64,000 bases of DNA from Spironucleus salmonicida (taxonomy: Eukaryota): positions 310,001-374,000 of the forward strand of contig NC_090596.1 in assembly GCF_000497125.1 (NCBI RefSeq). The letters run 5' to 3'. Below the pieces are notes generated by a model, which was given only the letters and a program-made list of their open reading frames with translations, ran no database searches and was not told the origin of the DNA. The position numbers and the translations under genes are program-made. This document shows, one piece after another, positions 17,532 through 44,737 of this stretch (positions are counted from its first letter, which is position 1; the number at the start of each line of letters is the position of its first letter).

Positions 17532-20500
17532 TCACTCCCACTACGACATGAGCAAAAGCAATTTATTCAACTATACACCTTTTTCAATACTTTACTATCT
17601 TGTATTCAAGTATAATAGATGCGAGTGTAAATTGCATATTAGTTATTAATTTCTATATAAAGGTATTTTCTTAATTCGTTACATATCATCTTCCCCATTA
17701 TCATCTAAATAAGGCCCTCCTGAAAAATATACATTATTCTTAAAATCTGTAAAAATGATAATATTTTACTAGTAAACATAATAGCAACCTTAATGTTAGC
17801 AGGTCTATGAGTGAGAAAAATTTTAAATATGCTTATAACATAGACCTTAGTTACAGAATACACAAAAACACAAAGCTTTATCCCCACAATGACAATTAAT
17901 TGGAAATTTTAATAATTATGAAAAATTCAGAGGAAATTCTTAAATTATCAATGGTTCTAAATATTAGTCTAATTTTATTGGTTACATGCTAGCAATATTA
18001 TCATATAGACAACATAATTTTAGAGATTATTGATATCCTTAATAACCTGATTAAAATTCTTTTTAGGAGAGTTCAAACTGTAATTCATTAAATTTTTATT
18101 AACTAATGAGCTGTTATTTTTTATTTAAAAGTATTTAAAGTTAAGCAATAACCTTATCATCTGCAAATTCTCTCATTATCAGAGATTTAAACAAATTATC
18201 AGTTTACAATTAATTGTTAGTTCTATATAATAGGCTATTTTAACAACAATAATTATATAATTGGTTTGCACTTAAAATTAATGAATATGATGTGAATATA
18301 ACTATTTGATATTATTTATTTTTATACTTTAAATCATTGTTATTATCTTAATGTATCCTAGAAGAAACAATTAGCACTTGTTAGTACGCAGTTTAAAGAA
18401 GCAACTGAATCATCATATTTATGATCTTAATATTTTCTTCCTCTATAGAATTTAATTAGATATTACTCAATGATTACAAAATATTTTCTTCATCTTGATG
18501 TTAATGAATACTAATTATATTAATAATTAATGCAATAATTACTGATATATTTTCATCGGTATCTATAGAAAATAAAATTGGAAATGCTACATTTGAGATA
18601 CATCGACATACTGGACACGAAATAGTTCCAGACTCAACTTTGGTACATGTATAGTGGAACACATGAGTGCAGGTTTATCCTAGTACTGCACTCTACTTGT
18701 TCGACATGACAGGCAACACTGTACCTAAAACACATAATGATGAGTTTTTCTTAAATATATCCTAACAAACTTAACACTTAGGTTGATATTTCTCAATGAG
18801 TTTCAATTAATCTTAAAATTCCGAAGGTGGTTGTTACATCATGTCATATTCTATGTGCTCATTATTAGTAGTATTAATAAGTTCATATGTGGGAGCTACC
18901 TTACTTTTAAGCTGGGCCAGCTTTGCCTAGAGTGAAATTTTGTTTACACTTTTCTTTTCTTGGTGTTGGTAGTCCATAAGGTTTTGGAGTACTATCCACA
19001 CCTAGTCTTGGTAGAGGCTCTGGTCTTTGGGGATTAGGTTGAACAGCTTTTTCAGCTCTAAGTCGTCAGCGTTGTGGATAATCAGCTGTTTGAATCCAAG
19101 AAGCACATAAATATCGTTGATAACGTTGGATGATTTGAAGGTTCCATCGACAAAGCCAGTCTTAACCAAGAAGAATATAACATCGTATACATGTTAGTTC
19201 GTGAATATCTGATCGGCAAGTTCTCGATCAAACGGCGCATCAAAGGTGTCTGCTGGAAGTATTGGGACTTTATACTTCAGAGCCTGGGTCTTAAAGGTGC
19301 TCAGGAACTATGGAATGTTAGCGCAGAACGAGTCAAAAATTGATAAATAAAGTAGACCGTTTCGACTAAGCTACCAGAAAATTTCTTGGTTTGAAGATTT
19401 ATAAAATTGTTAATTAGTATTCTAAAACTTAGTTTTTTCAGCAAATTTTTCTAAAATTAGCTCAAAACGTTCAGAATTATAAAAATCCATTTCACCAAAA
19501 AATTTTTGGACCTCGGAAGGAGATGCTTAATGTTTCATAAGTAAAAAAGAAATCACATATTTTGATATAAGTTCGGAATGTGCTGTGAGGAATTAAGATT
19601 TCATGACAAGACAAAGTAATATTCGTATTGAATATTAAACTAAATAAAATGACTTTTGCTAATCTTCTCGTTTATTAACAAAAACTATCTGACTTGTTTA
19701 TGGGTTTATTATACCAAGATTTTCTAACAATTAAACTACAAAGTACTTAGTCTTAAAAATGCCTTATTTAGTTGACTATAAAACTGATTATAGTAATAAA
19801 TAATGATGGTAGATAGAATTGTAATATAGTACATTTGGATGCTAATAGAGAAAACATTTAATATAATCTTCGACTTCGACGAGAGATTTAAAGAATCCTC
19901 CCTCTAAGAGGCCCACCGATACAATGGTACGCATGGCCCACGCAGCAATGACGGGCATATTGTACCGCGGGAGGCTGCGTGTATACTCTATAGAACCTAC
20001 AACATCCTTAAGGTATTCATAATGCGGCTTTTCAAACATGCCCTGTTTTTGGTACAGGTAGTATGCCTAAAGCCCGAAGGATAACATTATCACGAGTTGG
20101 TTATCGAGAGGGTGCAGTACGTCATGGTCTACCTAAATCATGTCCGTCTCTAAAATTGGTATCTGGGTGTGGAGCCCGAACCCGTATGGAATCTGTGGGT
20201 ACACATTGTTATTCGAGTAACAGAACTGGAAGCGCTAATTAAGAGAGTATGCAAGCAGAAAGTACGTTGAGAGCTACACAACGTTGTCTATCTGCTTTTG
20301 GAAATCTCGGTTCTTCGTTAAGTCGACGCTGTCAAAGTCGTCATTGACCCGGCAAATACTTGACTGAAAATTATACGTTGATATTCGATGACCATAAATC
20401 ATTCCTGTAAAAATTTCAAATGCAAAATCGTAAAAATATTTACCATTAAAGATTAATTATTATAAAATATCTTTTATTGGCTTATCGAATTATAGTACTT

Positions 20501-21998
20501 AAACATCTCTTAGACGCTTGACTTCAACTGTAAAATTAAATCCTAATAGAAACATAAAACTTAAAATAGGTAATTTATAACAGCTTATTTGAGCGTCAAA
20601 TTAAGAATTTTTCATTGAATAAATATGGCAAAGCAGAGAGTAACACATTTCTCTTAGATTATGAATATTTTCATTTGTTTCAATTAGTTACTAATTAAAT
20701 GATTCGAGAGATGGCAACATATCTGAAAAAATTTAAATAGAGTTATCGAAAAGTATTGTTAATTTAGAAATTAAAATATTACTTACCTTCTAATCCTTAC
20801 TAACAAAATATAGTTCTTCTATGCCATGCTTAAAAAATGAGTCTAAATATTATGTTAAAACACATCGTTAACATTTTAACATTTTTATATTTGATAGTTA
20901 TAAACATGTCAAATAATAGGAAGAAAGTTCAATAAAATTTACTATAATTCCATGAAAATTATCTATCTATATATTTGAATCCAATTATACAGGAGCACTG
21001 CACCATGTTTATTTTTAAACAGTACACGAATTATTTATAAATTTAATAGGCGTTTTTATTTTAGTATGAAATAGACTATTTATTTAATCCTACTATTAAG
21101 GGAAACAAGATGCTATAAGGTCCTGGTATCGCATGTAGAACGCGTACATCATGAGGGACCTGAAGTTTGGTTCGGATATTTGATACTCTACTAGCAGGTG
21201 TGCGATATCCTGATCACCGAGGCCTGGGATAAACTCCTCGGACTGGCTTATGATGCAGATGAGGGGATAGTGTTTGAATCCGGTCTGGTGGACGGTCTGG
21301 CGCAGTTCGTAAAAGTTGTGGTAAGGGAGAATGTGGTTCTCAAAGTTGCCAAAGTCCAGGAAGTCCTGCATTCGCGACTTGCCTGGGTCGATGAAGAGGC
21401 ACTTCGTGAAAATGCTCTTTAAGAAGTCCACGGGGTACTCGTACAGGATAGTCTTCAGCACGCTGCAGACATCCTGATATCTGGCGGAGTTCCCGCTGAC
21501 TAGGTGGTGTGCTATGAGGCAACACAGCGTGTAGATTACCTTCACGCACATCTATTCATCAAATATCAGCTTCTCGTCGTGGAAGTCCCTGATCACGTGG
21601 TTCCCACAGTGCTTATCGCAGAACCCCTCCGGCTTGATGGTACAGGCGAAGCCGCAGTCGCACATGCCGTTCGCAGTGAGATAGGTGTACTTGTGTCCCA
21701 CGTGTTTGGTCTCATCAAAACACTCCAGGCATATCACAGACGCCAGGTCGTTCGAACAAGTTTAACACTTAATGGCTGGACTATTTATTAATTATTTTCC
21801 ACAAACAGCATGAAGTAGACTATTAGTAATTTGTTAAAAATTATTAATATTTTAATTTTTAAGTAATATCTTTATAAATGAATCTTCTTCTTTATTTAGT
21901 AAATCATAAGATATAACATCTACTAATGTGATTTTGTCTAATATATTAGATAGATTAGAGTCGCTAAACATATTAATCATATTGACCCAATCCTCCAT
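17532..21998 (-). CDS. UBR-box/RING-H2 E3 ubiquitin ligase (UBR1-type N-recognin), copy A, ~1488 aa
   Basis: UBR box KCQTCSNDLASVICLECFDETKHVGHKY..GMCDCG..GFCDKH; split RING CQVC..CTHVFHYTC..CPVCR; UBR1-like C-terminal Cys cluster. Confidence 0.88.
18883..19346. repeat. Inverted near-identical tract 3 (464 bp), partner 42887..43350
   Basis: Hand alignment to the reverse complement; no differences noticed. Confidence 0.92.
19891..20381. repeat. Inverted near-identical tract 2 (491 bp), partner 41852..42342
   Basis: Hand alignment; one synonymous difference seen (19929/42304). Confidence 0.92.
21102..21773. repeat. Inverted near-identical tract 1 (672 bp), partner 40442..41113
   Basis: Hand alignment; two synonymous differences seen (21675/40540 and 21141/41074). 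Confidence 0.93.
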
Positions 21999-22045
21999 TC
22001 AATAAGCTAATATTATTTAAATAATATATATTAATAAAATTTATT

Positions 22046-24145
22046 TCATTCAATAGTTTTTAACAACAGCTAAATTTCATAATCAAACTTAATTCTAAAA
22101 TTTCTATGTTACTTTTTAGAACTAGGAGTAAATAAATCCATATTAAGACTCCAATCCTCGTCTAGTTTGACACAAATTGCCTTTGGTATGCAATATGCTT
22201 TAATACCTGCCTTTCTTACAAAAGTTTCGATTTCAGCCATCATGAATTTATCTAATTGATTCTAATTAGATATATTGGTAAATTTAGTCCCTATCATAGT
22301 AGATTCACATGATATAATACAGACTGGTGCGCATTTACTAGGATCTGCATAACAGAAACAATGCGAGATCAACGGAGAAGATTCAATAGCAGATTCTAAT
22401 TATTCTAAATCCACAAATTCACCATGCTACAATTTTTAAACTAGAGAAATTCTTCTTATGAAAGATATGCTACCGTCCTGATTAAGTCTTCCTAAATCAC
22501 CAGTGTGATAATAACCATCTTTATCTGCAATAGGGGTTAAATTATTAATATCACCATTAAAATATCCTAAACAAACACCAGGGCCTTTAATTAAAATTTC
22601 TCCAATTTTATCTTCATTTAAAGAGAATTCTGAAACGTCAGATCTATCGATAATAATCACACTAGTTTGATATGCAGCTTTTCCCAATGAATTCTGGTCA
22701 ATTATTCGATCACCTGAACATATTATAAGTCCAGTTGCTGAAGTCTCTGTAGAGCCGTAACCATGTACTAACCGTGCATTTGTACATGTCCTAAGAAAAT
22801 TTCCAACATCAATTGGAAGAGCTGAGCTAGCTGTGATCATAACTTCTACATTTCCTCCTAAATTTTAAGATATTTTTTTGAAAATTATATCAAATGGCAT
22901 CACTTTACCGGTTCTAAATGAAGAAGGAAACATACTCATAAATATTTTCTTAGCTAAATATGTAGTGTTGAATATAGCTCTAGGAATAACGCCAGCCTTC
23001 TATAATTAAGAAAATACTGAGCCATAAATTTTGGTAAAAACTCTTGGTACTCCAATAAATATAGTAGGCTTTGATAACTTAATATCTTAAGTTAAGTTTT
23101 TAGTTGATCCAGAATAATAATATATACAATAACCTCTTAAGTAACAATAGTGTTCGTAGCCACGCTCATATACATGCGCTAGTGGCAAGTACGATAGTGT
23201 TGACGATTAAATACCAGAATCAGCCTTATTATAGGGTTAGAGCTGTCTGCCCATACAACATCCGGATGCATATAGATTGGAGGAACATGAAACAACCGCC
23301 TTGGGCCTACCAGAGGTTCCAGAAGTGAATATAATAGAAGATGGATCCTGCGGGGTCTGACCGGAAGGAAGTTCTAGTTCCCCGCTTGCACTGCTAATAT
23401 CTGTGCTAATTGTATGTAAATGTAGGCGACTGACCTACCCATTGGTGAATAGCTGTGTCACAAACTTTTCGACTTCGGGTACATGGAGATCATCAGTATC
23501 AGCTTCTTCAATAGCCTATTTGGAGTGCACAGATAGTTGGAAAAGGGACTTGGTGTCATCCTCAAGCTGAATGTCGCTGCCGTCAAGTTTTAAAAATACT
23601 TTTTGCGCAAGGACTGACGTTTCTGATTCATCTACGAAGCGATCTAATACGATGATATGCTCCAGTGAGGCAATAGAATTTGTCATACCTAATATATTAC
23701 CGAGAACCTCCGAACCAACAAAGACAAAGCGCGTCTTGACGAAGTCCATGCAGTACTAGATGTTGTCTACGCCTAGCGTATCATAAATAGGAACAGTAAT
23801 AGCTTGACAGAATGAAACAGCTATATCGGCTAGTAACCATAGAGGTGAGTTCTTGGCATAGATACAGACGGTGTCGTTAGGCATGATCCTAAGAGATTTT
23901 AGCTACTCAACGATCCGTTACACGTACTTAAGAGAATCACCATAAGTAATGTAGCGGTACTCGTCCGCCAGCTCGTGCGTGCTTGTCGATAGCCCCGCGC
24001 GGTACGCCAGCATGTTGTCCCCGTAAAATTTCTTAATTGCTTATATATAATTAGCAGGTATTGTCTAGTCGTACTCTGGTTCCAACTCATGAATTAAAGG
24101 CAAGTTACCTGGTGCATTAAACGTAGTTTAATTTGCGTTGAGCAT
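22046..24145 (-). CDS. Long-chain fatty acyl-CoA synthetase, copy 1
   Basis: IIFTSGTSGRPKAV AMP-binding motif, SYLPLAHVYER, GYGSTET, YHTGDLG, KLQHGEFV; alternative in-frame ATG at 24169. Confidence 0.93.
23200..24036. repeat. Direct identical tract (837 bp), partner 25936..26772
   Basis: Offset 2736 bp; no differences noticed; sharp boundaries. Confidence 0.93.
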
Positions 24146-24793
24146 TTTTAATATTAGAGGTTGTGACATTATATAAATAATATTATAAATAATATTTACT
24201 TTAACAAAGTATTTTGACTACATTTTACACAATAAAACACTATTTAAATGATAATATTAATGCAATAATACTACAATGAAAGGTTAACAATGTCTTGTAT
24301 ATTACAATAACATCTATTTTCTAATTAAATTAAAATCATCCTAAATTCCGGAGTAAAGCTTATATATTAAAATATTAGACATAGCAATATTTATATTTAA
24401 TAATATTTTTTATAGATGAAATATAATATTAACTCAATAAAATAAATTAATAGTAAATTGTCATTTTTAGCTAAGTAAGTAAGTGATAATATTCGATTTG
24501 ATATTATGTTCCGCTATCCTTTTTAAATAAAATATTTCAGATTGCTAGTCTTAAATAAATATTAAATGTTTTCTCAAAAAATTAAAATAATCTATAGGTT
24601 TAATATATCCACTACTAAAACATAGACATCATTATTACAAGTTAAAAATAATTAATCATCCAAAGTTATTTTTAAAACTTGAACAAATTAATTAATTTAC
24701 GAAAAATCAGATAAGAATCAATAAAATACTTATTATTCTTGAATTTTAGTTAATCTTTTAATCAAAATTAGATTAAAAATTTACTTCAAGCTT

Positions 24794-26881
24794 TCACTCT
24801 ATTGCTTTAAGCAATTATTAAATTTCCTATCTAAACTTAACTCTAAAATTCTTGTGCTGCTTTTTCGAACTTGGTGTAAACAACTCCCTATCAATCAACC
24901 AGTCTACATCCTTATAAACTTTAACTGCCTTTGGTATACAGAATGACTTGATTCCTGCTTTTCTAACGTATTGATCAATTTCTTTTAATATTATATCATC
25001 CACTTTCTGGTCATCCGATATCTCTTTTAATAGAGATGAATCTATACTTACTATTGCAATAGGTGCGGATTTAGCAGAGTCTGCATATGTAAAGCAAGTT
25101 GTAATCATTGGCGAAGCCTCGATAGCTGTTTCCAACTATTCTAAATCAACAAATTCGCCGTGCTAAAGCTTTTATACTAGCGATATTCGCCTAACAAAGG
25201 AGATACTTCCATCCGAGTGATATTTGCCAAGATCTCCAGTATGATAGAATCCATTATTATCTGTAAGTTTTTCAAGTTTTTTAAGATCGCCAGTGAAGTA
25301 GCCCAGACACACTCCAGGGCCTTTGATTAGGATTTCGCCAATTAAATCTCTCTTTAGAGTAAATTCTGAAATATCTTATCGATCAATAAGAACAACTTCC
25401 GTTTGGTAACTTGATTTACCTAGTGAATTTGATGATTAAATAGCTTCTCCTGAACAAATTAAAAGACCTGTCGCCGATGTTTCAGTTAAGCCGTACCCTT
25501 GCATTAGTCTGGCACATGAATTTATCTATAAAAATTATAAAACATGAGCTGGCAAACTGGCAGATCCAGAAATTATGACTTCAATGTTTCCTCCTAAAGC
25601 TTCTCTTATTTTTTAGAAGACTGAGTCAAAGATAGAAACTTTCCCAGTTCTGAATGTCTAAATATTTCTAGACATATATAATCTTTTTAGGTAAGTTGCA
25701 ACGCTAAATATCATACTTGCTATCGTTCCTGCATTTTATATTTTTTTCTAAACTCCTGAATAAATTTTAGTGTAAACTCGTGGGACTCCTGGTAAAATAG
25801 TAGGTTTAGCTAGAGCAATATCTTAAGTCAAATTACGAGTATCACCAGAGTAATAATAAATATTATAGCCTCTACAATACGAGTAATGCTCGCAGCATCT
25901 TTCATAAACATGGGCTAATGGTAAATATGAAATAATTGACGATTAAATACCAGAATCAGCCTTATTATAGGGTTAGAGCTGTCTGCCCATACAACATCCG
26001 GATGCATATAGATTGGAGGAACATGAAACAACCGCCTTGGGCCTACCAGAGGTTCCAGAAGTGAATATAATAGAAGATGGATCCTGCGGGGTCTGACCGG
26101 AAGGAAGTTCTAGTTCCCCGCTTGCACTGCTAATATCTGTGCTAATTGTATGTAAATGTAGGCGACTGACCTACCCATTGGTGAATAGCTGTGTCACAAA
26201 CTTTTCGACTTCGGGTACATGGAGATCATCAGTATCAGCTTCTTCAATAGCCTATTTGGAGTGCACAGATAGTTGGAAAAGGGACTTGGTGTCATCCTCA
26301 AGCTGAATGTCGCTGCCGTCAAGTTTTAAAAATACTTTTTGCGCAAGGACTGACGTTTCTGATTCATCTACGAAGCGATCTAATACGATGATATGCTCCA
26401 GTGAGGCAATAGAATTTGTCATACCTAATATATTACCGAGAACCTCCGAACCAACAAAGACAAAGCGCGTCTTGACGAAGTCCATGCAGTACTAGATGTT
26501 GTCTACGCCTAGCGTATCATAAATAGGAACAGTAATAGCTTGACAGAATGAAACAGCTATATCGGCTAGTAACCATAGAGGTGAGTTCTTGGCATAGATA
26601 CAGACGGTGTCGTTAGGCATGATCCTAAGAGATTTTAGCTACTCAACGATCCGTTACACGTACTTAAGAGAATCACCATAAGTAATGTAGCGGTACTCGT
26701 CCGCCAGCTCGTGCGTGCTTGTCGATAGCCCCGCGCGGTACGCCAGCATGTTGTCCCCGTAAAATTTCTTAACTGAAAGTAAATAGTTCTACGGAACAGT
26801 ATGATTATACTCGGGTTCCAATTCAAGGATTAGGGGGAGATTACCTGGGGCGTCAAAAGTGCTTTGACTTGCAGTTAACAT
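24794..26881 (-). CDS. Long-chain fatty acyl-CoA synthetase, copy 2
   Basis: Same motifs as copy 1 (SYLPLAHVYER, QGYGLTET, YHTGDLG); alternative in-frame ATG at 26905. Confidence 0.93.
25936..26772. repeat. Direct identical tract (837 bp), partner 23200..24036
   Basis: See partner tract. Confidence 0.93.
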
Positions 26882-27118
26882 TATTAAGAAACGTAATATC
26901 TACATGCTGCATAAATAAATAAGATTAACTAAATTTGTTAAAACCTATATTATTTAAATATTATTTAACTTTACATTTTATGTAAGATATAATTTTCAAA
27001 TATCTGATGCTAATTATTATATAATATGTCACTTCTTTAATTGTGAGTGTAATACGATAATTTGTTTTCCGGCTTAGTTATAAAACGCCTAAAACTAATT
27101 TAAACCAAACAAACTTTC

Positions 27119-27913
27119 TCATTATGAAACTATCTCCAAGAGACCGTCAATTGCACTGTCTTCGGAAATATACAAATCGCCCTTGTGGAACATAGTCCTG
27201 TCAGCCCTTGTAATAATGTTCTACGACAGCAGCATCAACTGCTTAATTTTCTCAATCGCGCTCCTACTCAGCTTAACCTTCTAACAAGCGTTAACTACCT
27301 GTACAAAAACCTTCACAAAGTCATCTAAATCAGAGTTTTAACCCTGCGCTAGGTTTAGCTCGAACTCTAGCCCTCCCTGCAACCGGAAAACCTCGTCCTA
27401 GCGGTGCAAATTCCGAGCCAGAAGCGGAAGCTTGAGTTGTAATTTTAGCGCCAAATCAATAAGTTTCTTTTGCAAATCTTCGTCCACAAACGGCGCTAGT
27501 TCAGTGAGCTGTGTGAGCTGGTTGTTGAAAATTACAAGGATAGTTTCGCTCTGGATGAAAGTTGGAATATCGCTTAAGCTGGAAAGAACCGGAATGGTTT
27601 TCTACTTCGTATATGGAGCCAGATGCGTTTTTGTTAAAAACTGCGATTTGAAGTACTGTTGGTTCTGAATCACAACGGGATTAATAATACTAAGGTGACT
27701 ACTAGTTTGGGAAAACTTGGACATTTTCAGTTCGAAATTGTGCCTTTGCAGGTAGATTACGAGGTCTTAAACCTAGGACTATTAAGTCTTTGATAGCATA
27801 CCGAATTCGACAAATTTGTCGCCTACTTGCGATATATGGGTGGTTAATAAAGTGGGAAACGATATGAGCTGCTGAAGTTAATAGAAACGTAGAGATTTTA
27901 GTTTGTCCTGCAT
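27119..27913 (-). CDS. Hypothetical protein, 264 aa, GC-elevated
   Basis: ATG and TGA in frame under TAR=Gln. Confidence 0.65.
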
Positions 27914-28234
27914 TAAAAATAGTGGAAAGGAATTTATATTAACCGCAATCTAAGATATATTGTTGGTGTTATTGACAATTATTAGATATATGGAAGTTAT
28001 ATATTTATTGTATAGCTAAGCATTGAAATACGCTTAAAAGGAACATCTAGATTAAAGTATCATTTTTATAGTATACTATTATTGAGTTTAATTTATTTTT
28101 AGCAGTAAGAAATTCTGGATATATATATATATCTTTTAAGTGTAGCCTATCAGCGTCCTACTTAGTAGTATGCCAAATTTCGAAACTAAATATATTTAAA
28201 ATATTAGGATTACCAAAAAATAGGAATCAAGAGA

Positions 28235-28642
28235 TCACTATAGAATTTCACCAGCACTCTAATCAGCTAATATTAATCTCATACAATTTTCTTCTAATTC
28301 GTCAATAAGAATTTCTGCCTCTTATTTATCAAAAATCAGTCCGTTTTTGCCATCCTCCGCCTTTTTGAGGTCAAAACCTGATTATTTGGCATTAACTGAA
28401 TATTATTCACCTTTAAAAATTAAATTACTGCAATTAAATGCAAAAACAGCAGTTCTCAAGAATGAAAGTCCAGATTTCATTTAATTTTAGTCTGTCTAAA
28501 GCATAGCAGTTTCAGTTAAATCACATTTAACAAAATCATAAGAAATATCCTCAGTGCCATAAAATATACCAGTTAACGGTGCTGATAGATTGTCAAAGAT
28601 AAGCTGATTAATTTTTAGTATGACTTAAAGTGAGAATTTCAT
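28235..28642 (-). CDS. Hypothetical protein, 135 aa (N-terminus resembles a degenerate MPN fold)
   Basis: MKFSLQVILKI..LTGIFYG; fully translated; AGTGA-fused stop. Confidence 0.6.
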
Positions 28643-29296: not shown

Positions 29297-29354
29297 TTTG
29301 AAATGGAAAGAGGAGTGAAAAATAAAATGATGTGTACTACAATATATTAACTAG

Positions 29355-33661: not shown

Positions 33662-33707
33662 TAATATTTACTCAAACTATTATGAGCATATAATTATATT
33701 TACTAAA

Positions 33708-34307
33708 ATGGCATTTGTATAAATGAAAACCAAAGAAACTTTTGAACATGCGATTAAAACAAAAATTGAGAACGATTTAACCATTCAAAGAGACAAATTG
33801 GATAAATCTATACTAGGTACTATTAAATCATCGCATTTAAATTATAAGTCATACAATCTTGATATGCAGTACATAATGCATGAAAAAGTGCAAGAATATA
33901 AGAAAGAAAAGTCAAAACCTTACTCTTAATTTGTCACAGGGATGGTACCAGATAAAATTCTTAAAGACTTAAATAAACTTGAATTGTAGCAAAACCATGA
34001 CAAATAATATGGTAAAAAATAAATTCAAAAAGCTATTAACTTGAATGATAGCCTAGATGAAAGTAATTCCTATATATCACCGTAACTAACTTCTAGGACG
34101 GAGTTGCGAGAAGATATGACAAAATTGGTCGAAGATGCGAATAATGACATGTCAGTGTCAATTTTGGAGATAGATCTACATCAGCATGAAACTGCTAGTC
34201 AAAGATAAACACGAAAATGGAAGGAATTACAGAATAATTCGGTAGATTTCATAACATCAAACAAGCAAAACGAAGTTTATAAAATGATTTTAGAGTGGAG
34301 TCAGTGA
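33708..34307 (+). CDS. Hypothetical protein, 199 aa
   Basis: Extends ORF 33723..33929 through TAR codons to CAG-TGA. Confidence 0.7.
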
Positions 34308-34373
34308 CTTATAATGATATATTATTGTAATGTTCATTTTATTTTTTCATTTCTAATTTTACCATTAATAAAA

Positions 34374-37300
34374 ATGATTCCACGCGATTGTATAGCTTAT
34401 TTTCCAGGAGAATTTGTTGCTATTGTATAGGATAAATTAACATTGGGAAGGATTATGCCACCATTTGAAAGAAATATAAATAATGGGGAAGATTTATCAT
34501 ACTCAGTATTTATAGTTTCTACAAAATAAGTTGTTGATGTCACAGTACAATGTATTGTACCTTTTAACTATTTAGCAATTAGGGGACTTCCATATACTAC
34601 ATCAAACTATCGTATTTTCTTTGAAGATTTTATTTAAATGTTTTACGATAATTTTGATATCATTAGACAAACAATTTATATACCAAATATTCCATTTCCT
34701 TTGGGTAACTATATAAGAGACTAGAATGATTGTAGAGATTTTTTAGCAGCTGCAATTCCTTCTCCGTATGAAGTTAAAAATAAGCTCAAAACATTAGAAC
34801 AAATAACAAAATAAAATGAAAATTTTTTCTAATAAGATATTAAACCACAAAAATAATTTTAAGTTTCATCCAATAAGATTATCTCCTTAGGAGACGTTAT
34901 ATCCTTAAATAAATAGTATTATTTGGTTAAACGTATATTTGCTATAAAAAAATATCCATATGATAATGTTCTTCTAGAAGTAGAAGTTTTAGCTAATAAT
35001 TAACACGATAAGTATACTTTAGTTGGTTTAAGTATTCAAATCCCCTTAATATATGAATTCCAAGTATTTTAAACCAAATTGAAAATTGAAGATGCAGATA
35101 AGAAAATAATCCTACCTTTATAGTTTTATAATTCTTAAGAATAAATTGAAAATCCTGAAAAACTAATTATAGATTATCTTATTCCTCATGATCATATTGC
35201 ATTTGCTAAACTTGCAGCTAATCCAATTATGTCTAATTCATTTTAATCATTAGATTTCTAGGTTCGATAATTTAGCTCAGATGCAGTATTTGACATTTAA
35301 AATGTACCAGTTTTTTCAGAAGCTTAAACGACAACACCGCCACCAAAAAGTTCAAAATTTTTATCTGCCGAAGATAATAAATTATAGCTTCTTGAATCAC
35401 CACCAGCATAATATCCATGTAAAATATGCAACGCTTAGATATCTGAAAATCTTCTTTTTATTGATCAGGCTGAATCGGATTTATTTGCATTAGCATATTT
35501 TTTGAATAAATTTGGAGGTGCTTTCCATTGTTTAAAATGCAATTCAGTATGCCACTAAAATTGTATATTCTAACACTAGGCAAAATATTAAATTTAATTT
35601 AATGAATTAGTATGTGGTGGATATTCACTCTGTTGTGTGAATGGTAATTGCTAATTTTGTAATGACACACCAAATTATTTTGGGGAATAGAAGCTTGATT
35701 TTTGGTAAAATTTTATTCGGAAAAACTATTATTTTAACGAAGAGTATGACGTCATTTCTGAAATATAATTACAATAGCTGGGTGATAAAACTCTTGTACA
35801 TTAGTTTAGTAACTTTCTTAATAATTGGCATATGCATCGAATTGATAGTAATTTGGAAATTTAGAATGCTGATGAGGAGGTTATGAAGCGCTTTATGAAT
35901 GTTTCTATTAATGATAAAGAGTTTGAAAATTGTAAAGTAAATTTTGGCAGTTTGAAAAGTTAATTTGGGGTTATTCGGGCTAGTTTAGTGTAAAATTGTC
36001 ATTATACATAAGAATTTTTGGTTAATTTCATGGGATGTATTGATTCATTTCTGAATAAATAAAGTAATTTGTTGTTTTGGCTGTAAGTTTGGTATACTGA
36101 AAATGACTTTGTTGAATTTGAGTAGATTGAAGGAGATAAAGTGGAGTAAGTCATTATAGATCGGTTTAGAGGTGATATTGGATCAAAAATAGTAAAAAAG
36201 GAAGCAGTCAAAGCTGAAATTATTTAACCAAAAACTAAATAATAAAACAAATAAATGTAGCAGAAGTTAGTCATTCCTACAATTGATTTTACGGAAAAAG
36301 TTATAAAAGAATCATAAGAGGCTAGTTTGAAGCTTAGTTAGGTAAATTTGCTTAAATAGCATCCTTTATAATATCCTATTAATGTATCATAATAATAGGT
36401 ATAGAAAGTAACATTAAATAGTTAATCTATACCGTCAGTGTCATCCGGAGTATCATAATTTAATTTATCTAAACCAGTAATGCTAAATATGTCTTAAAAT
36501 ATTCCTCCAAAAATGCCATAATCACCACCAACATTCTCACAAAAAGATTAACATGAACTACAAAATTAAACATAATTGCTATAAAATAATTAATAACATT
36601 TACCACAAAAATTAGTTTCGTAGCAATAATAAGCTGCATCTTAGACTATTATCAACAATACTAACCATAATCCTGTTTAGTAAGATGTTAGCGATCAAAG
36701 TATAAATTCAGATATTCGCTTCCCATCTGATTTTATAACAGTTTAAACAAATACTGACGAAGCTGGTTAACTTTCCACGGCATAATATTCTAAAATTTAT
36801 AGTGATGTAAGAGAATAATATGAAAATACACTAGTTTAAGATTAGTAATCTGGACCAGTGTTTGTACCTCCATAAGTTTAAAAGGTTACAAAAATTACAC
36901 AACCATTCGAGCTTGGGACTGATGTTTAGGCTATAAAATCTGGAATTTAAGTCTCTTTAGATATAATCAAATCATCGAATTTAGTTGGTGATTTAGTATC
37001 ATAAATAGAGCAAGGTGATAAGCCATCATATGACCTCCATATACCATAATATTAATCAGAACCACCTCAAAAGCTTACGATAACCGATACTGAAAATTTT
37101 ATTTCTAAAGTTATTAATAATTAGACATTGTCTTTAGAAGATCTTCCATACTTTTGCAAAACTCTTCAAAATTTATAAAAAGCATTACCAATACATCAAA
37201 ACCAATATCCCTAAATTTTACCAAATTTTCCATCATCGGCTACGCTCTAAAAATTGTTAATTTAAAGTAATATCTAAGAATTAGAAAGTTAAGCTGAAAA

Positions 37301-37610
37301 TTTAGCATGTAAAGATAATAGCTTGAATCTCAAGGCAAACGAAACAATATCAACAATAGAGTCCATCAGAATTGCATTTTCTGAACTTAAATCAAAACTT
37401 TAAATGCTTGCTTAAGAACTTCAGGATACATAAAATGAAAAACAGATTACACAGTATTAGTTGCAGGAGAATGCACTTAAATAGCAAAATCTGGCAAAAA
37501 AATTCTGCGATATAAATAAGGATGTCGATCAAGCAGTTTTTTCAGATTTTGTACATCTGTAAAAGTTAAAGCAGTTAGTTTGTGGGGCAGTTGTAGAGAG
37601 CTTGAAGTGA
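34374..37610 (+). CDS. Large protein with PHD/C1-like Cys-His cluster, Q-rich region and C-terminal coiled coil, 1078 aa
   Basis: PCKICN..FHCLKCNSVCHQNC..CCVNGNCQFC; ATG in frame with AAG-TGA. Confidence 0.7.
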
Positions 37611-37698
37611 AAACCGGATTGAGTTTAAAATATAATTATTTATTGTTTAAGTAATATCAGAAAATCGAAAGAATGCTGAATTTTAGTAATTAAACTCA

Positions 37699-38799
37699 TC
37701 ACTTTTTGATTTTTCTGAAAATATTATCAATCTGATCTGCTATTTCTCTAATTTTATGATCATCTAGTGTATCAGAAATCATCTTTATAGCTTTTTAACC
37801 GGCAGAAAGCTACTTATAAGGTACTTTAAAACTTTTTGATGTAATAATAAGCTTAAATACATACAAAAATGTCTTAACTTCATTTATGTTTAAAACTTCC
37901 TAGATTTCATCAGAATTTTCAGTCTATTTGGGGTGAAGGATAGCTTTAAAATAATCACATAGATCAAGAAGTTTTCCGTAAATTCCAGCTTTAAAAAGAG
38001 AAGTATCTAACTATTTATAAACTAAAATCCAATGTAAAACACCTTTATCTTAAAAAAGTAATTACTTACTTTAGCTTATTGATAATGTGGTATTAGTAAA
38101 CAAACAACATATGATTTCACCAACACGATCATTTTTAATAATTTTAAGATGAAAGAATAGTTTACATAAACCAAACAGTCGATACATTGATTCATATCGG
38201 TCTTCACCCTACCATTTCCTGGTGGTTGCACTGAGTAGCATTTCACGGGCTTATGATGATTCATAAAATTTGGCGACTTCTAGTGGTATTTTAACTGTCT
38301 TAGTAACCTTTCTAATTTAAACACCTATACTATTGACAGGTGGAAGTTGTGCGGCTATTTTGAAATACGCAATTACTTCTTGAGAATTTTCCTATTCTTG
38401 GTAATTTTCTGAAATATGGTCTGAAAGAAGTGTAAATTATGTCAAAAAATCCTCTGATACTTGTACTTGAGAATCAAGACGTCCAACATCTTAAGATTAT
38501 GGCAAACTGGCATTAAATTCAGTAAGTTCCGAATCTGCACCTTCATAAGTTATTTAATTGGGGTATGGGAATTAATTAGGTTATCTTATTGCTAATTATA
38601 ATTCCATTTTCTGTGATTTTTATTCAGAAATTAACTCGTTATTGTTTTATTATTTAATATAATTTGTAGCAATTGATGAATAAAGCATTTCCTGGTTATC
38701 ATATATTCTAATATCTATAAATTTTCGCGGAACTGGACAATATTAAGAACTTTCTTGGATAGATGTACTAGAAACTCGAAAATAAAATGCTGATTCCAT
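37699..38799 (-). CDS. Hypothetical protein, 366 aa
   Basis: In-frame ATG and AGTGA-fused stop. Confidence 0.65.
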
Positions 38800-39260
38800 T
38801 GTAAAGTGGAGTTGTATCTTTTTAAAGATATAAATATATAATAATCATATAAATCTAAAATATGTAAACAATAATGTTTCACAAAAATTAAAATAATGAA
38901 ACAAAATCACTATATCCATATGTGTAATAACTTTTTAGAAATAAGTATAAATACAGAAAAAGATAATAGTACTTAGATACTAAAAATAAATTATTAAACT
39001 TTAATAATTAGCTAACAATTTGATTCCAAATCGGCTATAGTTGAAATTCCTAATAATAAAGCTTGAGAAACTATAACTCTTGTAATTATGTATTGCCTAT
39101 TAATTAGAAATAGTAACACTAATAAAATTATAACAAAAATACTGAGAAATATTTACATTTGATAGCCTAGATTAAAATATACAATATTATTATTATTATT
39201 ATTATTAATTAATATATTATAAGCTATATTATATAATATTTTTATTAACATAAACTAAAA

Positions 39261-39692
39261 ATGATTTCAAATACACGTAGACTTCAGAATGAGCTTAAAC
39301 TATTTCGTGAAAATCCTCCAATATAATGCTCAGGGGGTCCATAAGATAATAATATTTTCTAGTGGGAATGTCAAGTAGTTGGGTCAAATACTTCAGCATA
39401 CTCCGGGAAAATATTTAAAATCATATTTAATTTTCCTTAAGAATATCCATTTAAATAACCAATTTGTGAATTTTTAACGCCTATTTATCATCCAAATCTA
39501 AGTATAGGAATTCTAGAAATTGAAATTTTAGATTAATGGCTTCCTGTTTACACAGTTTCGAAAGTTTTAGAATTTATTAGAAATTTATTGTAGGACCCCA
39601 ATATTGAAAATTATATATGTAACTAAGAAGCTGCTTCAAAATATTAAGAAGACATAGAAACCTTCACATAAGAAGTAGATAAAATTGAATGA
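39261..39692 (+). CDS. Ubiquitin-conjugating enzyme variant (pseudo-E2, no catalytic Cys)
   Basis: RRLQNEL, FPQEYPFKQP, PIYHPNLSIGILEIEILDQWLP: Glu occupies the position of the catalytic Cys. Confidence 0.88.
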
Positions 39693-39737
39693 TGGTATTA
39701 TATAGTATTATATAATTTTCTTTTCTTTTTATTGAAT

Positions 39738-40187
<450 letters not shown>

Positions 40188-40228
40188 CGGGTTTTATATA
40201 ATTATATAATATATTCACCATTTCTTAC

Positions 40229-43200
40229 ATGGACAGCTTAATTAACTTATTAAAAAAACTTGATACACCATTGGTTGAATTACAATAATATACAGAAATC
40301 ATGGATTTAGATTTTAGATAGGATAGAAATATATTATTTAAGTCACTGTAAATAAATAAAGCTAATCCTTCAACACGTGCCTAATTATCAAACCAACTAT
40401 AAAAATCAGTTTGCGGAAAACCTTTAAATAACTGCGTTGGAATTAAGTGTTAAACTTGTTCGAACGACCTGGCGTCTGTGATATGCCTGGAGTGTTTTGA
40501 TGAGACCAAACACGTGGGACACAAGTACACCTATCTCACCGCGAACGGCATGTGCGACTGCGGCTTCGCCTGTACCATCAAGCCGGAGGGGTTCTGCGAT
40601 AAGCACTGTGGGAACCACGTGATCAGGGACTTCCACGACGAGAAGCTGATATTTGATGAATAGATGTGCGTGAAGGTAATCTACACGCTGTGTTGCCTCA
40701 TAGCACACCACCTAGTCAGCGGGAACTCCGCCAGATATCAGGATGTCTGCAGCGTGCTGAAGACTATCCTGTACGAGTACCCCGTGGACTTCTTAAAGAG
40801 CATTTTCACGAAGTGCCTCTTCATCGACCCAGGCAAGTCGCGAATGCAGGACTTCCTGGACTTTGGCAACTTTGAGAACCACATTCTCCCTTACCACAAC
40901 TTTTACGAACTGCGCCAGACCGTCCACCAGACCGGATTCAAACACTATCCCCTCATCTGCATCATAAGCCAGTCCGAGGAGTTTATCCCAGGCCTCGGTG
41001 ATCAGGATATCGCACACCTGCTAGTAGAGTATCAAATATCCGAACCAAACTTCAGGTCCCTCATGATGTACGCATTCTACATGCGATACCAGGACCTTAT
41101 AGCATCTTGTTTCACTGATAGTATTTGTACTATAAAACAAACTAATGGAACTCTTATGAATATTTTTAATCAAAAAATTGAATTAGTAAGATATTAATAT
41201 AAAAATATAAAGTTTAAGAAGTAAATTTGGTGTAGTGCTCCAGTCTAACTTGATTCTAACATATAACTTGACAGCAGCCATTCAATAATGATTAATTTTT
41301 TAGAATAAAGTTCATATACATTAGCATAATATAACGGAATGCTATCATAAAAATCATAAGATTATGAAATTTCATTTTCGTTTTTGTAGAACTTTTTCAA
41401 TTCTGGTATATAAGAATTATTAGACTTATTTTTATTATCTGAAACATCACCTCCATAAAATTTAGTTAAAGAACTTTCAATTTTATTTAATAATCTTTTA
41501 CAGTTTCATAGGTAATTACCTAGTATGTCAAGTTATGATAAAGACTTAACAAATATTTTAATTAATATTGATTTTTAATCAAACATGAAGTACTCTCTTC
41601 AAACATTAGTATATTCTATGAAAAATACTTAATTTGATGGTCAATTATGCAGATATAAACTATCTATTTTACCTTTCTGCTTCTTTTTATCAAATAGAGC
41701 ATTTATAGAGACTATAAGAGTTAGAGATAAAAAAGTAATTTAAAGTGATGCTACAATAAAGAAAATTTTGGAATAATTATTTTATGGTGGTAAATAATAT
41801 TATGATTATACTTATGAAATTTTTACAAGTATTGTATATGGATTTAGAACTTCAACGTATAATTTTCAGTCAAGTATTTGCCGGGTCAATGACGACTTTG
41901 ACAGCGTCGACTTAACGAAGAACCGAGATTTCCAAAAGCAGATAGACAACGTTGTGTAGCTCTCAACGTACTTTCTGCTTGCATACTCTCTTAATTAGCG
42001 CTTCCAGTTCTGTTACTCGAATAACAATGTGTACCCACAGATTCCATACGGGTTCGGGCTCCACACCCAGATACCAATTTTAGAGACGGACATGATTTAG
42101 GTAGACCATGACGTACTGCACCCTCTCGATAACCAACTCGTGATAATGTTATCCTTCGGGCTTTAGGCATACTACCTGTACCAAAAACAGGGCATGTTTG
42201 AAAAGCCGCATTATGAATACCTTAAGGATGTTGTAGGTTCTATAGAGTATACACGCAGCCTCCCGCGGTACAATATGCCCGTCATTGCTGCGTGGGCCAT
42301 GCGGACCATTGTATCGGTGGGCCTCTTAGAGGGAGGATTCTTCAAATCGTTGATAGATATTGAAGAATATATAAAATGTATATTATTTTAGCATTCTAGG
42401 GTTTAGTATTATAACCCAATGTACCACCATTTTGTATTATTGTAATCAATTTTACTTGGATGTAAAAATGATTAGTATAATACTAACTAATTTATTCATT
42501 AAATGGGAGAAAACTATGGATTTATTAATCCTATTCAGAATTAATTTTTTGAATATCATAAATTAGAGGATAAAGATAAATTATTTATCCTAAAATAACA
42601 TTTCGTAAAGGCTTTATTATAAATTACATTTAAGGAATAAATGTTTTAGATTCATTCTGATATAAAAATAAAATATATTTTGGCATTTTTGCTTATTAAT
42701 GATGAAACTAAACCATCAAAAGTATATGGATAATTTAAATATAATGATTTTTATAATTCCGAAATATTTGAATCTTTATTACTAAAAATAGCAACCTTAT
42801 CTACATAGCAAGACAATCTTAGTCAATTTTACAAATCTTCTAATAATTCAGTATACTGGGAGATTAATTAGAATGGTTTAGCTAAATTATCAATTTTTGA
42901 CTCGTTCTGCGCTAACATTCCATAGTTCCTGAGCACCTTTAAGACCCAGGCTCTGAAGTATAAAGTCCCAATACTTCCAGCAGACACCTTTGATGCGCCG
43001 TTTGATCGAGAACTTGCCGATCAGATATTCACGAACTAACATGTATACGATGTTATATTCTTCTTGGTTAAGACTGGCTTTGTCGATGGAACCTTCAAAT
43101 CATCCAACGTTATCAACGATATTTATGTGCTTCTTGGATTCAAACAGCTGATTATCCACAACGCTGACGACTTAGAGCTGAAAAAGCTGTTCAACCTAAT

Positions 43201-44737
43201 CCCCAAAGACCAGAGCCTCTACCAAGACTAGGTGTGGATAGTACTCCAAAACCTTATGGACTACCAACACCAAGAAAAGAAAAGTGTAAACAAAATTTCA
43301 CTCTAGGCAAAGCTGGCCCAGCTTAAAAGTAAGGTAGCTCCCACATATGATCTTATTTAGGAAATAAAAGACAACGCATATGATAATACATAATTTAAAG
43401 CTTAAGATTAATTATTTATTAAATAATTACATATTATCAATGAATTTCAACCAAACTGTCAAGTCTGCTAAGATATATGTACAGATGATTCAACCTTATG
43501 TATTTTGGGCACATGTACTCCAACTTTAATTGATAATAAGCCAGGGGCAATAGGTCAAACATGCACTCATGCATTTCATTTTGATTGCATTAGAAAAGAA
43601 GTATTTGCTGTAAAATGTCCGATTTGTAGATGTCTTTCCACAACTTTGTTTCCAATAGCTTTCTCATAAGATACTTAAGAATGTTTAAATGTTATAGATC
43701 ATCTTATTTAATCAATTTCCTTTGCAATTTCATAAAAATATACAGATTTTAGTACTTCACCAACCCAGTTATTATCTTTCAGTCATATTACCGATAATTC
43801 CTTTTCGTCTTAAGATATAGAGGAGTCTTTAATCCTCATTAATTTACTTCTCATGACTGCATACTAATAATTACGAGCTATTATTTCTAGAATTAATGCA
43901 GATGATATTGAAAACGAAGTTTACAAAAGGAAATAATATTAAATTGTCCTATTAACCTCGCATTCATGTATTATTTCGGCTCAAAAAATATATGAATTTA
44001 TCTCAAAGTTTAACGTCCCAGTCATTACTGAATAATATGATATTTTATCTTTGAATCTATTTAATTGTTTAATACTTAATAACAAAACATAGAATCCAAT
44101 TATTTAGCAATTACAAAGATTCTATAATGACCCTTTAAACGCTCTTTCGATCATAGAATTTGAAACAGCATCCGCGTACCTCTTAAACCAGTAGTCATAT
44201 AGATTCCTTGTTTAAAACCTCACTTTTCAAATTTACTTAGCAAAGTTAAAATTTTCACTCCTTTTTTCACTTTTGCAAAATTCTGAAATTCCATAAATCG
44301 ACATTACACAATTTGATCTAAAGATTTATAATTTTCCTGACCATTTCGCGCAGCTATTAAAGCACCCACCAAAATGCAAATGTGGCAAATCCTGCACTTG
44401 CTTCTGTATTTGGTGTGGTACCGGATTCTGTGCAACTGATTTTGACGATTTCTCACATATTTGCTAATACCAGCAAGCATACTATTTCTACAAGCAGAAT
44501 ATTCTTGTTTTCACTGAATTTTACAACTCGGTGTATTTTTCAGGAGGGCCTTATCTGGATGATAATGGTGAGGACGACATCGAGCGCTAGAAGAACATTC
44601 CACTGTACTTAAGCCAGAAGCTTATTGGGTCTCTTAAAACGCACTTTCTATACTGCAACTCGCGGCAAATGAACGCAGAAACTGGCCTTCCGCTAAGTAG
44701 ATTCAGCGATTTGATGGTCAAATGGGGAAAAGAGTGA
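40229..44737 (+). CDS. UBR-box/RING-H2 E3 ubiquitin ligase (UBR1-type N-recognin), copy B, ~1502 aa
   Basis: Same UBR box as copy A; RING CQVC..CTHAFHFDC..CPICR; ends GAG-TGA. Confidence 0.88.
40442..41113. repeat. Inverted tract 1, partner 21102..21773
   Basis: See partner tract. Confidence 0.93.
41852..42342. repeat. Inverted tract 2, partner 19891..20381
   Basis: See partner tract. Confidence 0.92.
42887..43350. repeat. Inverted tract 3, partner 18883..19346
   Basis: See partner tract. Confidence 0.92.

What the first reader, a model, noticed from the sequence alone, without database searches (positions are those of the whole stretch)
17532..44737. Inverted pair of mosaic UBR E3 ligase genes: three near-identical GC-rich tracts inside otherwise diverged paralogs
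Seen: copies A (-) and B (+) share tracts of 672, 491 and 464 bp with only three differences noticed, all synonymous. Edges are abrupt and the intervening segments are heavily diverged even in protein (RING region KKNSSLCVLGTVLPVM vs TDDSTLCILGTCTPTL). The tracts are GC-rich: hand count 36/60 at 40561-40620 versus 6/60 at 41161-41220, just outside. Tract 1 covers most of the UBR box (N-degron recognition). Tract 3 includes the basic segment before the RING (KRKSVNKISLQAKLAQLKSK), positionally like the E2-binding basic region of yeast Ubr1. Inference: ongoing segment-restricted ectopic gene conversion keeps the substrate- and E2-binding modules identical while the rest diverges.
Basis: partly seen in the sequence, partly recalled or inferred. 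Interest (0 to 1): 0.85.

Follow-up and report, generated by a model that had tools for sequence, protein, structure and literature searches.

The report
Gene-conversion patches in two UBR ligase genes
Two old, diverged copies of a UBR-type ubiquitin ligase gene in the fish parasite Spironucleus salmonicida keep three short stretches almost letter-identical and unusually GC-rich, most likely by repeatedly copying them from one another, which is a clean example of a known process and not a new one.

Summary
The window reads TAA/TAG as Gln and lies on a contig that carries proteins named Spironucleus salmonicida. Gene A (17532-21998, -) and gene B (40229-44737, +) share tracts of 672, 491 (497 by contig ends) and 464 bp, with three differences, all synonymous. 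In the tracts dS is 0-0.03. In the spacers it is saturated (pS 0.63-0.76), with about 42% amino-acid identity. Tract GC3 is 0.52-0.72, against 0.14-0.29 in the spacers.

Short-read DNA contigs break at the tract edges and carry about twice the flank depth. That means two copies, with no third donor. RNA-like contigs from a second study run from the tracts into both A-specific and B-specific flanks.

The adjacent acyl-CoA synthetase pair shows the same pattern, with an 837-bp tract that is 100% identical and GC-rich. So this is a regional or genomic process, not something specific to UBR genes.

Best reading: recurrent, homology-limited ectopic gene conversion with a GC-biased outcome. Tracts 2 and 3 are no better conserved across species than the spacers, and the conserved RING and C-terminal block lie outside the tracts. 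The genome paper already reports that duplicated regions have 44.7% GC against 30.7% elsewhere. An earlier scan note on Giardia describes the same pattern. This is a new member of a known kind, of moderate interest.

The parts
17532..21998 (-). UBR gene A, 1488 codons plus TGA, read with TAA/TAG = Gln
   Evidence: Open frame under table 6. Identical to a predicted protein in the database. Pfam zf-UBR E 6.8e-12.
40229..44737 (+). UBR gene B, 1502 codons plus TGA (frame open from 40145)
   Evidence: Database prediction P0003 is 1502 aa. Pfam zf-UBR E 1.2e-10.
21102..21773 (-). Tract 1 in A (672 bp; A residues 76-299; most of the UBR box plus about 170 residues)
   Evidence: 2 synonymous differences, GC 0.50, GC3 0.72. 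A single 672-nt DNA contig at depth 20.8-25.3, against flank contigs at 8.2-12.9.
40442..41113 (+). Tract 1 in B
19885..20381 (-).
   Evidence: 452-nt identical run. GC3 0.57-0.59, dS 0.028. Contig ends at 19885 and 20381.
41852..42348 (+). Tract 2 in B
18883..19346 (-). Tract 3 in A (464 bp, 0 differences; A residues 885-1039; ends in the basic helix-like segment about 36 residues before the first RING Cys)
   Evidence: 464-nt contigs in the RNA-like runs X5 and X6. First RING Cys at A1075.
42887..43350 (+). Tract 3 in B
22046..24382 (-). Acyl-CoA synthetase gene ACS1 (AMP-binding)
   Evidence: Pfam PF00501 E 7e-54. Homologues are named long-chain fatty acid CoA ligase in S. salmonicida and Hexamita inflata.
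24794..26905 (-). Acyl-CoA synthetase gene ACS2, tandem paralogue of ACS1
   Evidence: Pfam PF00501 E 5.6e-54. 76% identical overall to ACS1.
23200..24036 (-). ACS1 copy of an 837-bp, 100% identical GC-rich tract
   Evidence: GC 0.443. An 837-nt DNA contig at depth 25.2, against flank contigs at 11.9 and 13.7.
25936..26772 (-). ACS2 copy of the same 837-bp tract

Best explanation
A and B are old paralogues of a UBR-box/RING-H2 E3 ligase in Spironucleus salmonicida. They duplicated after the split from the Hexamita lineage. They lie head to head, 18.6 kb apart.

Three islands inside them (672, about 495 and 464 bp) are kept near-identical by recurrent non-crossover ectopic gene conversion between the two loci. 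The spacers are about 47% mismatched, so heteroduplex cannot extend into them. Exchange therefore stays inside the islands and the edges stay sharp.

The same repair is GC-biased. This has driven third positions in the islands from about 0.2 to 0.5-0.7 GC, and has shifted Gln codons from TAA to CAG/TAG.

Shown: the identity pattern, two copies, the compositional step, a second gene pair with the same pattern, and transcription of both genes.

Inferred: conversion as the mechanism (about 0.93), its recurrence, and the GC bias as its consequence (about 0.65).
For: Identity and divergence:
- dS is 0.015, 0.028 and 0 in the tracts. In the spacers pS is 0.63-0.76 (saturated) and dN is 0.51-0.86.
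- On spacer columns A and B are sisters (100/100) with terminal branches of 0.72 and 0.86 changes per site. On tract columns the branches are 0.0018 and 0.

Copy number:
- DNA contigs of runs X1 and X3 end at the tract edges.
- Tract contigs or bins have depth 17-26, against about 8-13 for flanks.
- A GC-rich single-copy stretch (27179-27500) has depth 12.5/10.7. So the doubling is copy number, not GC bias, and there is no third copy.
- Both paralogue variants at 21675 and 21141 appear among the contigs of X1 and X3.

Transcription:
- Runs X5 and X6 carry poly-T or adaptor loose ends, so they look like RNA.
- Their contigs run from the tracts into A-specific sequence (records 17, 19, 25).
- Loose ends at 18876, 19885 and 21773 match B's flanks, compared by eye.

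Composition:
- GC3 is 0.72, 0.57 and 0.52 in the tracts, against 0.14-0.29 in the spacers.
- Gln codons in the tracts: CAG 18, CAA 8, TAG 8, TAA 2. In A's spacers: TAA 63, TAG 17, CAA 13, CAG 4.
- The tracts still use the reassigned codons, so the sequence is native.
- All 5 synonymous differences at tract codons are AT<->GC.

Generality:
- The ACS1/ACS2 tract is 837 bp and 100% identical, with GC3 about 0.33-0.73 against 0.07-0.40 outside.
- A 99%-identical 54-nt tandem repeat has 56% GC.
- Repeated DNA in the window is 46.0% GC and the rest 27.2%.
- 22 of 33 200-nt windows with GC >= 0.40 lie in repeats, against 6 of 287 others.
- The genome paper PMC9509377 (passages read) reports 44.7% GC for duplicated regions against 30.7% for the rest.
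Against: GC-rich islands also occur without an identical partner.
- 27101-27700 is single-copy by contig depth.
- B's 3' end (from about codon 1410; island 44401-45100) has GC3 0.40-0.53 but only 44-68% nucleotide identity to A.
- The third S. salmonicida UBR paralogue P0288 has an Ala/Gly/Arg-rich C-terminal third (GARP 0.28). It has no near-identical partner among proteins of 840-2676 aa.
- 11 of the 33 GC-rich 200-nt windows are not repeated within the window.
So GC-richness may have a cause that is only partly tied to A-B exchange.

No close relative's DNA was available. I could not show W-to-S polarity of substitutions or by-genome grouping of tracts.

Long reads were not examined here.

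Contigs drop rare variants, so they cannot prove that no further differences exist between the loci.

The best DNA runs may come from the sample the window was assembled from.
Confidence: 0.75

Rival explanations
1. The conversions were recent and one-off, and they copied GC islands that already existed. GC-rich islands arise in this genome for another reason, such as local allelic recombination or repair hot spots, or some other compositional force. Ectopic exchange merely happened, or survives, where such islands were shared.
For: Single-copy or private GC islands exist: 27101-27700, B's 3' end, and the P0288 C-terminus. All four tracts are about equally young, at 0-0.4% different.
Against: The identity edge and the GC edge coincide at all six UBR edges in both copies. 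GC inside is 24-33 of 60 and outside 10-18 of 60. Repeats are strongly enriched among GC-rich windows, and the genome paper reports the same genome-wide. Raising GC3 to 0.72 needs many substitutions, and A and B share them.
Confidence: 0.15
2. Selection for identical protein modules. Conversion events are retained because the UBR box and an E2-binding helix must stay the same in both ligases, while selection for divergence purges conversions in the spacers.
For: T1 holds 55 of 65 UBR-box residues. T3 ends in a basic helix-like segment ahead of the RING, positionally like the yeast U2BR. Sharp edges are also what selection against conversion in the spacers would give. Root-to-tip protein change is lower in the tracts (stem 1.2) than in the spacers (1.06 + about 0.8).
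Against: T2 and T3 are no better conserved against Hexamita than the spacers are. The RING and the C-terminal block are conserved but not converted. An unrelated enzyme pair next door shows the same pattern. Identity extends to synonymous sites, which protein-level selection does not require.
Confidence: 0.08
3. Assembly or polishing artefact. The tracts were collapsed or homogenised when the contig was built.
For: The published assembly was polished with short reads (passage). That could erase a few true differences inside repeats.
Against: Three in-frame tracts sit in each of two intact genes. Contigs from four runs in two studies reproduce the tracts, their edges and both flank contexts. 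Depth is twofold. The paralogue-specific differences are retained. The paper states a long-read N50 of 14.6 kb, far longer than any tract.
Confidence: 0.02

Closest known systems
Interlocus (ectopic) gene conversion with GC-biased outcome in duplicated genes. Examples are recalled and were not read here: mammalian histone and Hsp70 paralogues, yeast and Arabidopsis duplicates, and the Walsh and Teshima-Innan models of homology-limited conversion.
   Same: Discrete tracts are identical even at synonymous sites inside old paralogues. GC3 is raised in the tracts. Sharp edges sit where flank divergence blocks heteroduplex.
   Different: The contrast is extreme: GC3 0.72 against 0.15 in a genome of about 30% GC. 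There are three separate islands in one gene pair. The organism is a binucleate diplomonad with a variant genetic code, and the shift is visible in the reassigned Gln codons.
GC-rich duplicated regions of the S. salmonicida genome (PMC9509377; passages read)
   Same: Same organism and same correlation: duplicated regions 44.7% GC, the rest 30.7%. In this window the figures are 46.0% and 27.2%.
   Different: The paper counts BLASTN matches of >=95% identity and >=2000 bp. It mentions gene conversion once, for regions around cysteine-rich membrane proteins. Sub-genic tracts of 464-837 bp in housekeeping paralogues fall below that threshold. They are not mentioned in the passages I read. I could not see the supplements.
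Identical inverted vsp gene pairs and vsp recombination in Giardia (PMC2996952; passages read), and the earlier scan note e1-637816 on a Giardia HCMP gene
   Same: These are diplomonads too. Inverted gene pairs are identical up to a point of abrupt divergence. The scan note also ties a sharp AT-to-GC switch to copying among paralogues.
   Different: Those are surface-antigen families with whole-gene identity or one long tract. The authors of the vsp paper favoured recent duplication. Here the genes are anciently diverged housekeeping genes with several short internal tracts.
UBR1/UBR2/PRT6 N-recognin E3 ligases
   Same: UBR box (Pfam; PDB profile E 1e-10 to 1e-16). A RING-H2 spacing conserved in 5 of 5 aligned diplomonad homologues. 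A conserved C-terminal block.
   Different: About 28% identity even to Hexamita. No other Pfam domain was detected. N-degron and E2 binding are untested.

Membership tests
UBR-box N-recognin E3 ligases (UBR1/UBR2/PRT6 type) | UBR-box zinc finger | tested here: met
   PF02207 at 45.7 and 41.7 bits, against a cut-off of 25.2. Profile hits to UBR boxes of PRT6, UBR1 and UBR2 at E 8.6e-16 to 1.6e-10.
UBR-box N-recognin E3 ligases (UBR1/UBR2/PRT6 type) | RING-H2 finger downstream of the UBR box | tested here: inconclusive
   C1075-x2-C1078 ... C1110-x-H1112-x2-H1115-x2-C1118 ... C1128-x2-C1131 is invariant in 5 of 5 sequences. The only PDB match is weak (AMFR RING, E 0.0054). No Pfam RING family at E <= 0.01.
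UBR-box N-recognin E3 ligases (UBR1/UBR2/PRT6 type) | E2 (Ubc2/Rad6)-binding helix directly before the RING | not testable with these tools
   A basic segment lies at A residues about 1018-1037, and the first RING Cys is at 1075. The yeast U2BR is a helix followed by the RING (passages). This is a positional analogy only.
UBR-box N-recognin E3 ligases (UBR1/UBR2/PRT6 type) | Binding of N-degrons and ubiquitin ligase activity | not testable with these tools
   Needs biochemistry.
Ectopic (interlocus) gene conversion tracts | Segments with far lower divergence than the flanks, synonymous sites included | tested here: met
   dS 0-0.028 against saturated spacers. log10 P <= -127 per tract.
Ectopic (interlocus) gene conversion tracts | The paralogues are old, so the identity is not a recent whole-gene duplication | tested here: met
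   Spacer amino-acid identity 0.41-0.43. Terminal branches of 0.72 and 0.86.
Ectopic (interlocus) gene conversion tracts | Real in the DNA at both loci, with a defined copy number | tested here: met
   Contigs break at the edges and carry about twofold depth. Both flank contexts appear in runs of two studies. Long reads were not examined here.
Ectopic (interlocus) gene conversion tracts | Segment-wise trees: tracts group by genome, spacers by paralogue | not testable with these tools
   The nearest available relatives are Hexamita inflata proteins at about 28% identity. A and B are sisters in both partitions.
GC-biased gene conversion | GC3 raised in converted tracts relative to unconverted flanks of the same gene | tested here: met
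   0.52-0.72 against 0.14-0.29 for the UBR pair. About 0.46 against about 0.2 for the ACS pair.
GC-biased gene conversion | Excess of AT-to-GC substitutions, polarised by an outgroup | not testable with these tools
   No outgroup DNA close enough. The only hints are the Gln codon shift and 5 of 5 tract differences being AT<->GC.
GC-biased gene conversion | GC enrichment confined to sequences that exchange | tested here: inconclusive
   22 of 33 GC-rich windows are repeats. But 27101-27700 is single-copy, B's 3' island is private, and the P0288 C-terminus has no partner found.

The most novel reading that the evidence does not exclude
The three identical islands are fixed recombination joints, not just by-products of conversion. 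A and B are inverted. An occasional crossover inside a tract would flip the 18.6-kb interval between them. That would re-associate the diverged 5' and 3' modules of the two ligases, giving up to eight module combinations in a cell population. Under this reading, GC-rich islands genome-wide mark repair hot spots in a diplomonad for which no sexual cycle is known to me (recalled). Short-read contigs cannot phase the spacers across a tract, so nothing here excludes mixed orientations.
Probability: 0.05. Interest if true: 0.7.

Novelty: new member of a known kind. Interest (0 to 1): 0.35.

Why it matters
It gives a base-pair-resolved view of how homologous repair shapes a diplomonad genome. Ectopic exchange works on tracts of roughly 0.5-0.8 kb. 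It is frequent enough to hold paralogue islands at 0-0.4% difference, close to the allelic heterozygosity of 0.09-0.15% quoted in the genome paper. It goes with a large GC shift.

That offers a mechanism for the published but unexplained finding that duplicated regions in S. salmonicida are GC-rich. It also warns annotators and phylogeneticists that single genes here can carry segments with very different histories and codon usage.

It says little about UBR ligase biology.

Tried and rejected
- Whole-genome search: no genome is held for this window. I could not look for partners of the unpaired GC islands.
- Word-based homologue search with A found only A, B and one dictyostelid UBR hit. The full HMMER scan was needed to reach the Hexamita and third S. 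salmonicida homologues.
- Standard and bacterial codes give only short ORFs. I first thought of a ciliate and dropped that when named the contig's other proteins.
- A larger ancient inverted segmental duplication is rejected. No other paralogue pairs flank A and B.
- A third donor copy is rejected, because tract depth is about 2x and not 3x.
- A foreign origin for the GC-rich tracts is rejected, because they use TAA/TAG as Gln.
- A structured RNA in the tracts: no Rfam family reaches its gathering score anywhere in the window.
- No listed holder is on record as RNA. X5 and X6 are RNA by guess, supported only by poly-T and adaptor loose ends.
- Parts of A's spacers had no cover in X5 and X6. 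I draw no inference from that.
- Literature. 'Spironucleus' plus 'biased gene conversion' found 0 papers. 'Spironucleus salmonicida' plus 'gene conversion' found 6, and only one is relevant. The 2014 genome paper has no occurrence of 'conversion' or 'ubiquitin'.
- Earlier scan notes for this genome: none.
- Structure prediction, complex prediction and atlas searches were not run. They would not bear on the conversion question.

Full report
**What the DNA is.**
- The window is AT-rich, about 27-28% GC.
- It gives long open frames only when TAA and TAG are read as glutamine. The standard code gives 3 ORFs of >=120 aa in 15-47 kb. Table 6 gives frames of 1488 and 1530 codons at the reported places.
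- A homologue search with the neighbouring acyl-CoA synthetase returned other proteins on the same 1,924,143-bp contig. Their sources name them Spironucleus salmonicida. The next relatives are from Hexamita inflata.
- So this is the diplomonad S. salmonicida, a salmon parasite, and not a ciliate.
- The region is gene-dense and has no evident introns.

**Observation.**
- Gene A (17532-21998, minus strand, 1488 aa) and gene B (40229-44737, plus strand, 1502 aa as predicted in the database) both carry a UBR box above Pfam's cut-off.
- A RING-H2 spacing is invariant across five diplomonad homologues.
- The UBR box matches solved UBR1, UBR2 and PRT6 boxes.
- A codon alignment gives three tracts. 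T1 is 672 bp, A 21102-21773 = B 40442-41113, with 2 differences. T2 is 491 bp, A 19891-20381, with 1 difference (497 bp as laid contigs). T3 is 464 bp, A 18883-19346 = B 42887-43350, with no difference.
- The three differences are synonymous.
- The edges are abrupt to within a few bases.
- At the spacer mismatch rate of 0.468, each tract has log10 P <= -127.

**Divergence and composition.**
- Nei-Gojobori estimates under table 6 give dS of 0.015, 0.028 and 0 in the tracts. Synonymous difference in the spacers is saturated (pS 0.63-0.76), with dN 0.51-0.86.
- Spacer amino-acid identity is 0.41-0.43 in S1-S3.
- GC3 is 0.72, 0.57 and 0.52 in the tracts and 0.14-0.29 in the spacers. First and second positions also rise, to 0.36-0.39 from 0.23-0.33.
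- Glutamine codons switch from mostly TAA in the spacers (A: TAA 63, TAG 17, CAA 13, CAG 4) to mostly CAG in the tracts (CAG 18, CAA 8, TAG 8, TAA 2).
- The tracts still use the reassigned codons, so they are native sequence under a GC-ward pressure and not imported DNA.

**Is it real, and how many copies are there?**
- One search found eight public runs of one coded organism in two coded studies. I laid four of them on 17000-27500.
- In the two DNA runs (X1, X3) the contigs end at the tract edges. Examples are a 672-nt contig over 21102-21773 and an 837-nt contig over 23200-24036 or its twin.
- Tract contigs and bins have depth about 17-26, against about 8-13 for the flanks.
- The GC-rich but unrepeated stretch 27179-27500 has depth 12.5/10.7. 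So the doubling reflects copy number and not GC bias. There are two copies and no third donor.
- The contigs of X1 and X3 carry different paralogue variants at 21675 and 21141. So those differences exist in the data.
- These DNA runs may come from the sample the window was assembled from, and contigs drop rare variants.
- Runs X5 and X6 belong to a second study. They show poly-T and adaptor loose ends, so they look like RNA.
- They reproduce the tract contigs and run into A-specific sequence (records 17, 19, 25).
- Their loose ends at 18876, 19885 and 21773 match B's flanks as printed (compared by eye).
- Both genes therefore appear to be transcribed.
- The genome paper (PMC9509377, passages read) describes a long-read assembly with read N50 of 14.6 kb and short-read polishing. 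Tracts under 1 kb are far shorter than those reads.

**Not special to UBR genes.**
- The tandem acyl-CoA synthetase genes next to A (22046-24382 and 24794-26905, both minus) share one 837-bp tract at 100% identity.
- Its GC3 is mostly 0.33-0.73. The flanks have 49-71% nucleotide identity and GC3 of 0.07-0.40.
- A 54-nt tandem repeat at 50549-50745 is 99% identical between copies and has 56% GC.
- Over the window, repeated DNA is 46.0% GC and the rest 27.2%.
- 22 of 33 200-nt windows with GC >= 0.40 lie in repeats, against 6 of 287 others. These windows are not independent, and each pair counts twice.
- This mirrors the paper's genome-wide figures of 44.7% against 30.7%. Those were computed only on matches of >=2 kb.

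**History.**
- A full HMMER scan found Hexamita inflata UBR ligases (P0125 and P0281 families) and a third S. salmonicida paralogue on another chromosome (P0288).
- On spacer columns the tree is ((A,B),Hex1) and (Hex2,Ssal3), with full support for A+B. The terminal branches are 0.72 and 0.86. On tract columns they are 0.0018 and 0.
- The duplication is therefore old, but it postdates the split from the Hexamita lineage.
- No closer relative was available. The classical test, tracts by genome and spacers by paralogue, could not be run.

**Mechanism.**
- The best reading is recurrent non-crossover ectopic gene conversion between the two inverted loci.
- It is confined to islands, because the 47%-mismatched spacers cannot support heteroduplex.
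- It has a GC-biased outcome that built up the islands' composition.
- Three separate tracts cannot come from one event across such spacers.
- Shared GC3 of up to 0.72 implies many shared substitutions. That argues for long-standing exchange, not a single exchange.

**Caveats on the GC link.**
- 27101-27700 is GC-rich but single-copy.
- B's 3' end is GC-rich without identity to A.
- The third paralogue's GARP-rich C-terminal third found no near-identical partner among proteins of 840-2676 aa.
- I therefore put conversion at about 0.93 and the causal GC link at about 0.65.

- T1 does cover 55 of 65 UBR-box residues.
- Identity to the Hexamita homologues is 0.35/0.34 for T1, 0.23/0.21 for T2 and 0.31/0.17 for T3. 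Spacers S1-S3 give 0.19-0.28.
- The RING and the C-terminal GGPYLD block are conserved yet unconverted.
- The basic segment at the end of T3 sits where the yeast Ubr1 U2BR helix sits, just before the RING (passages). That is analogy only.
- An unrelated enzyme pair shows the same pattern. So a neutral, homology-limited process explains the data without module-level selection.

**What is known.**
- GC-enriching ectopic conversion among paralogues is textbook (recalled examples).
- In diplomonads, identical inverted vsp pairs with abrupt divergence are described for Giardia (PMC2996952, passages).
I did not check that note.
- For S. salmonicida, the GC-duplication correlation is published. Gene conversion is mentioned once there, for surface-protein regions.
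- My searches found no paper linking Spironucleus to biased gene conversion. The 2014 genome paper has no mention of conversion or ubiquitin. I could not see the supplements.
- Verdict: a real and very clean example, a new member of a known kind, of moderate interest.

Noticed in passing
window 22046-26905: Tandem acyl-CoA synthetase paralogues share one 837-bp, 100% identical, GC-rich tract (23200-24036 = 25936-26772). Their flanks have saturated synonymous sites.
   Followed up: yes
window 50549-50745: A 54-nt tandem repeat with 3.6 copies, 99% identical and 56% GC. It encodes [18 protein letters not shown] units in an FG-rich ORF (50132-51367, +). This is another homogenised, GC-rich repeat.
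   Followed up: partly
window 27101-27700: A GC-rich island (0.42) in ORF 27119-28063 (-), which has no Pfam family. It is single-copy by DNA contig depth and has high depth in the RNA-like runs. It is a counter-example to the idea that GC islands are always repeats.
   Followed up: partly
window 44401-45100: A GC-rich island (0.41) spans the convergent 3' ends of UBR gene B and a metallo-beta-lactamase-fold gene (44743-46458, -). B is GC-rich here but A is not. Whether a partner exists elsewhere is unknown.
   Followed up: no
window 22035 and 27106: Contigs of the RNA-like runs end in poly-T loose ends 11-13 nt beyond the stop codons of ACS1 (stop at 22046-22048) and of ORF 27119-28063. That implies very short 3' UTRs.
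   Followed up: partly
protein P0288 (third S. salmonicida UBR paralogue, on another chromosome): Its C-terminal third is rich in Ala/Gly/Arg (GARP 0.28 against about 0.1 in the rest of the alignment). That suggests a GC-rich 3' segment. No near-identical partner was found among proteins of 840-2676 aa.
   Followed up: partly
window 13101-13800 and 49501-50200: Further GC-rich islands lie inside a bromodomain gene (13143-14012, -) and a protein kinase gene (49126-50235, +). Neither has a repeat within the window.
   Followed up: no
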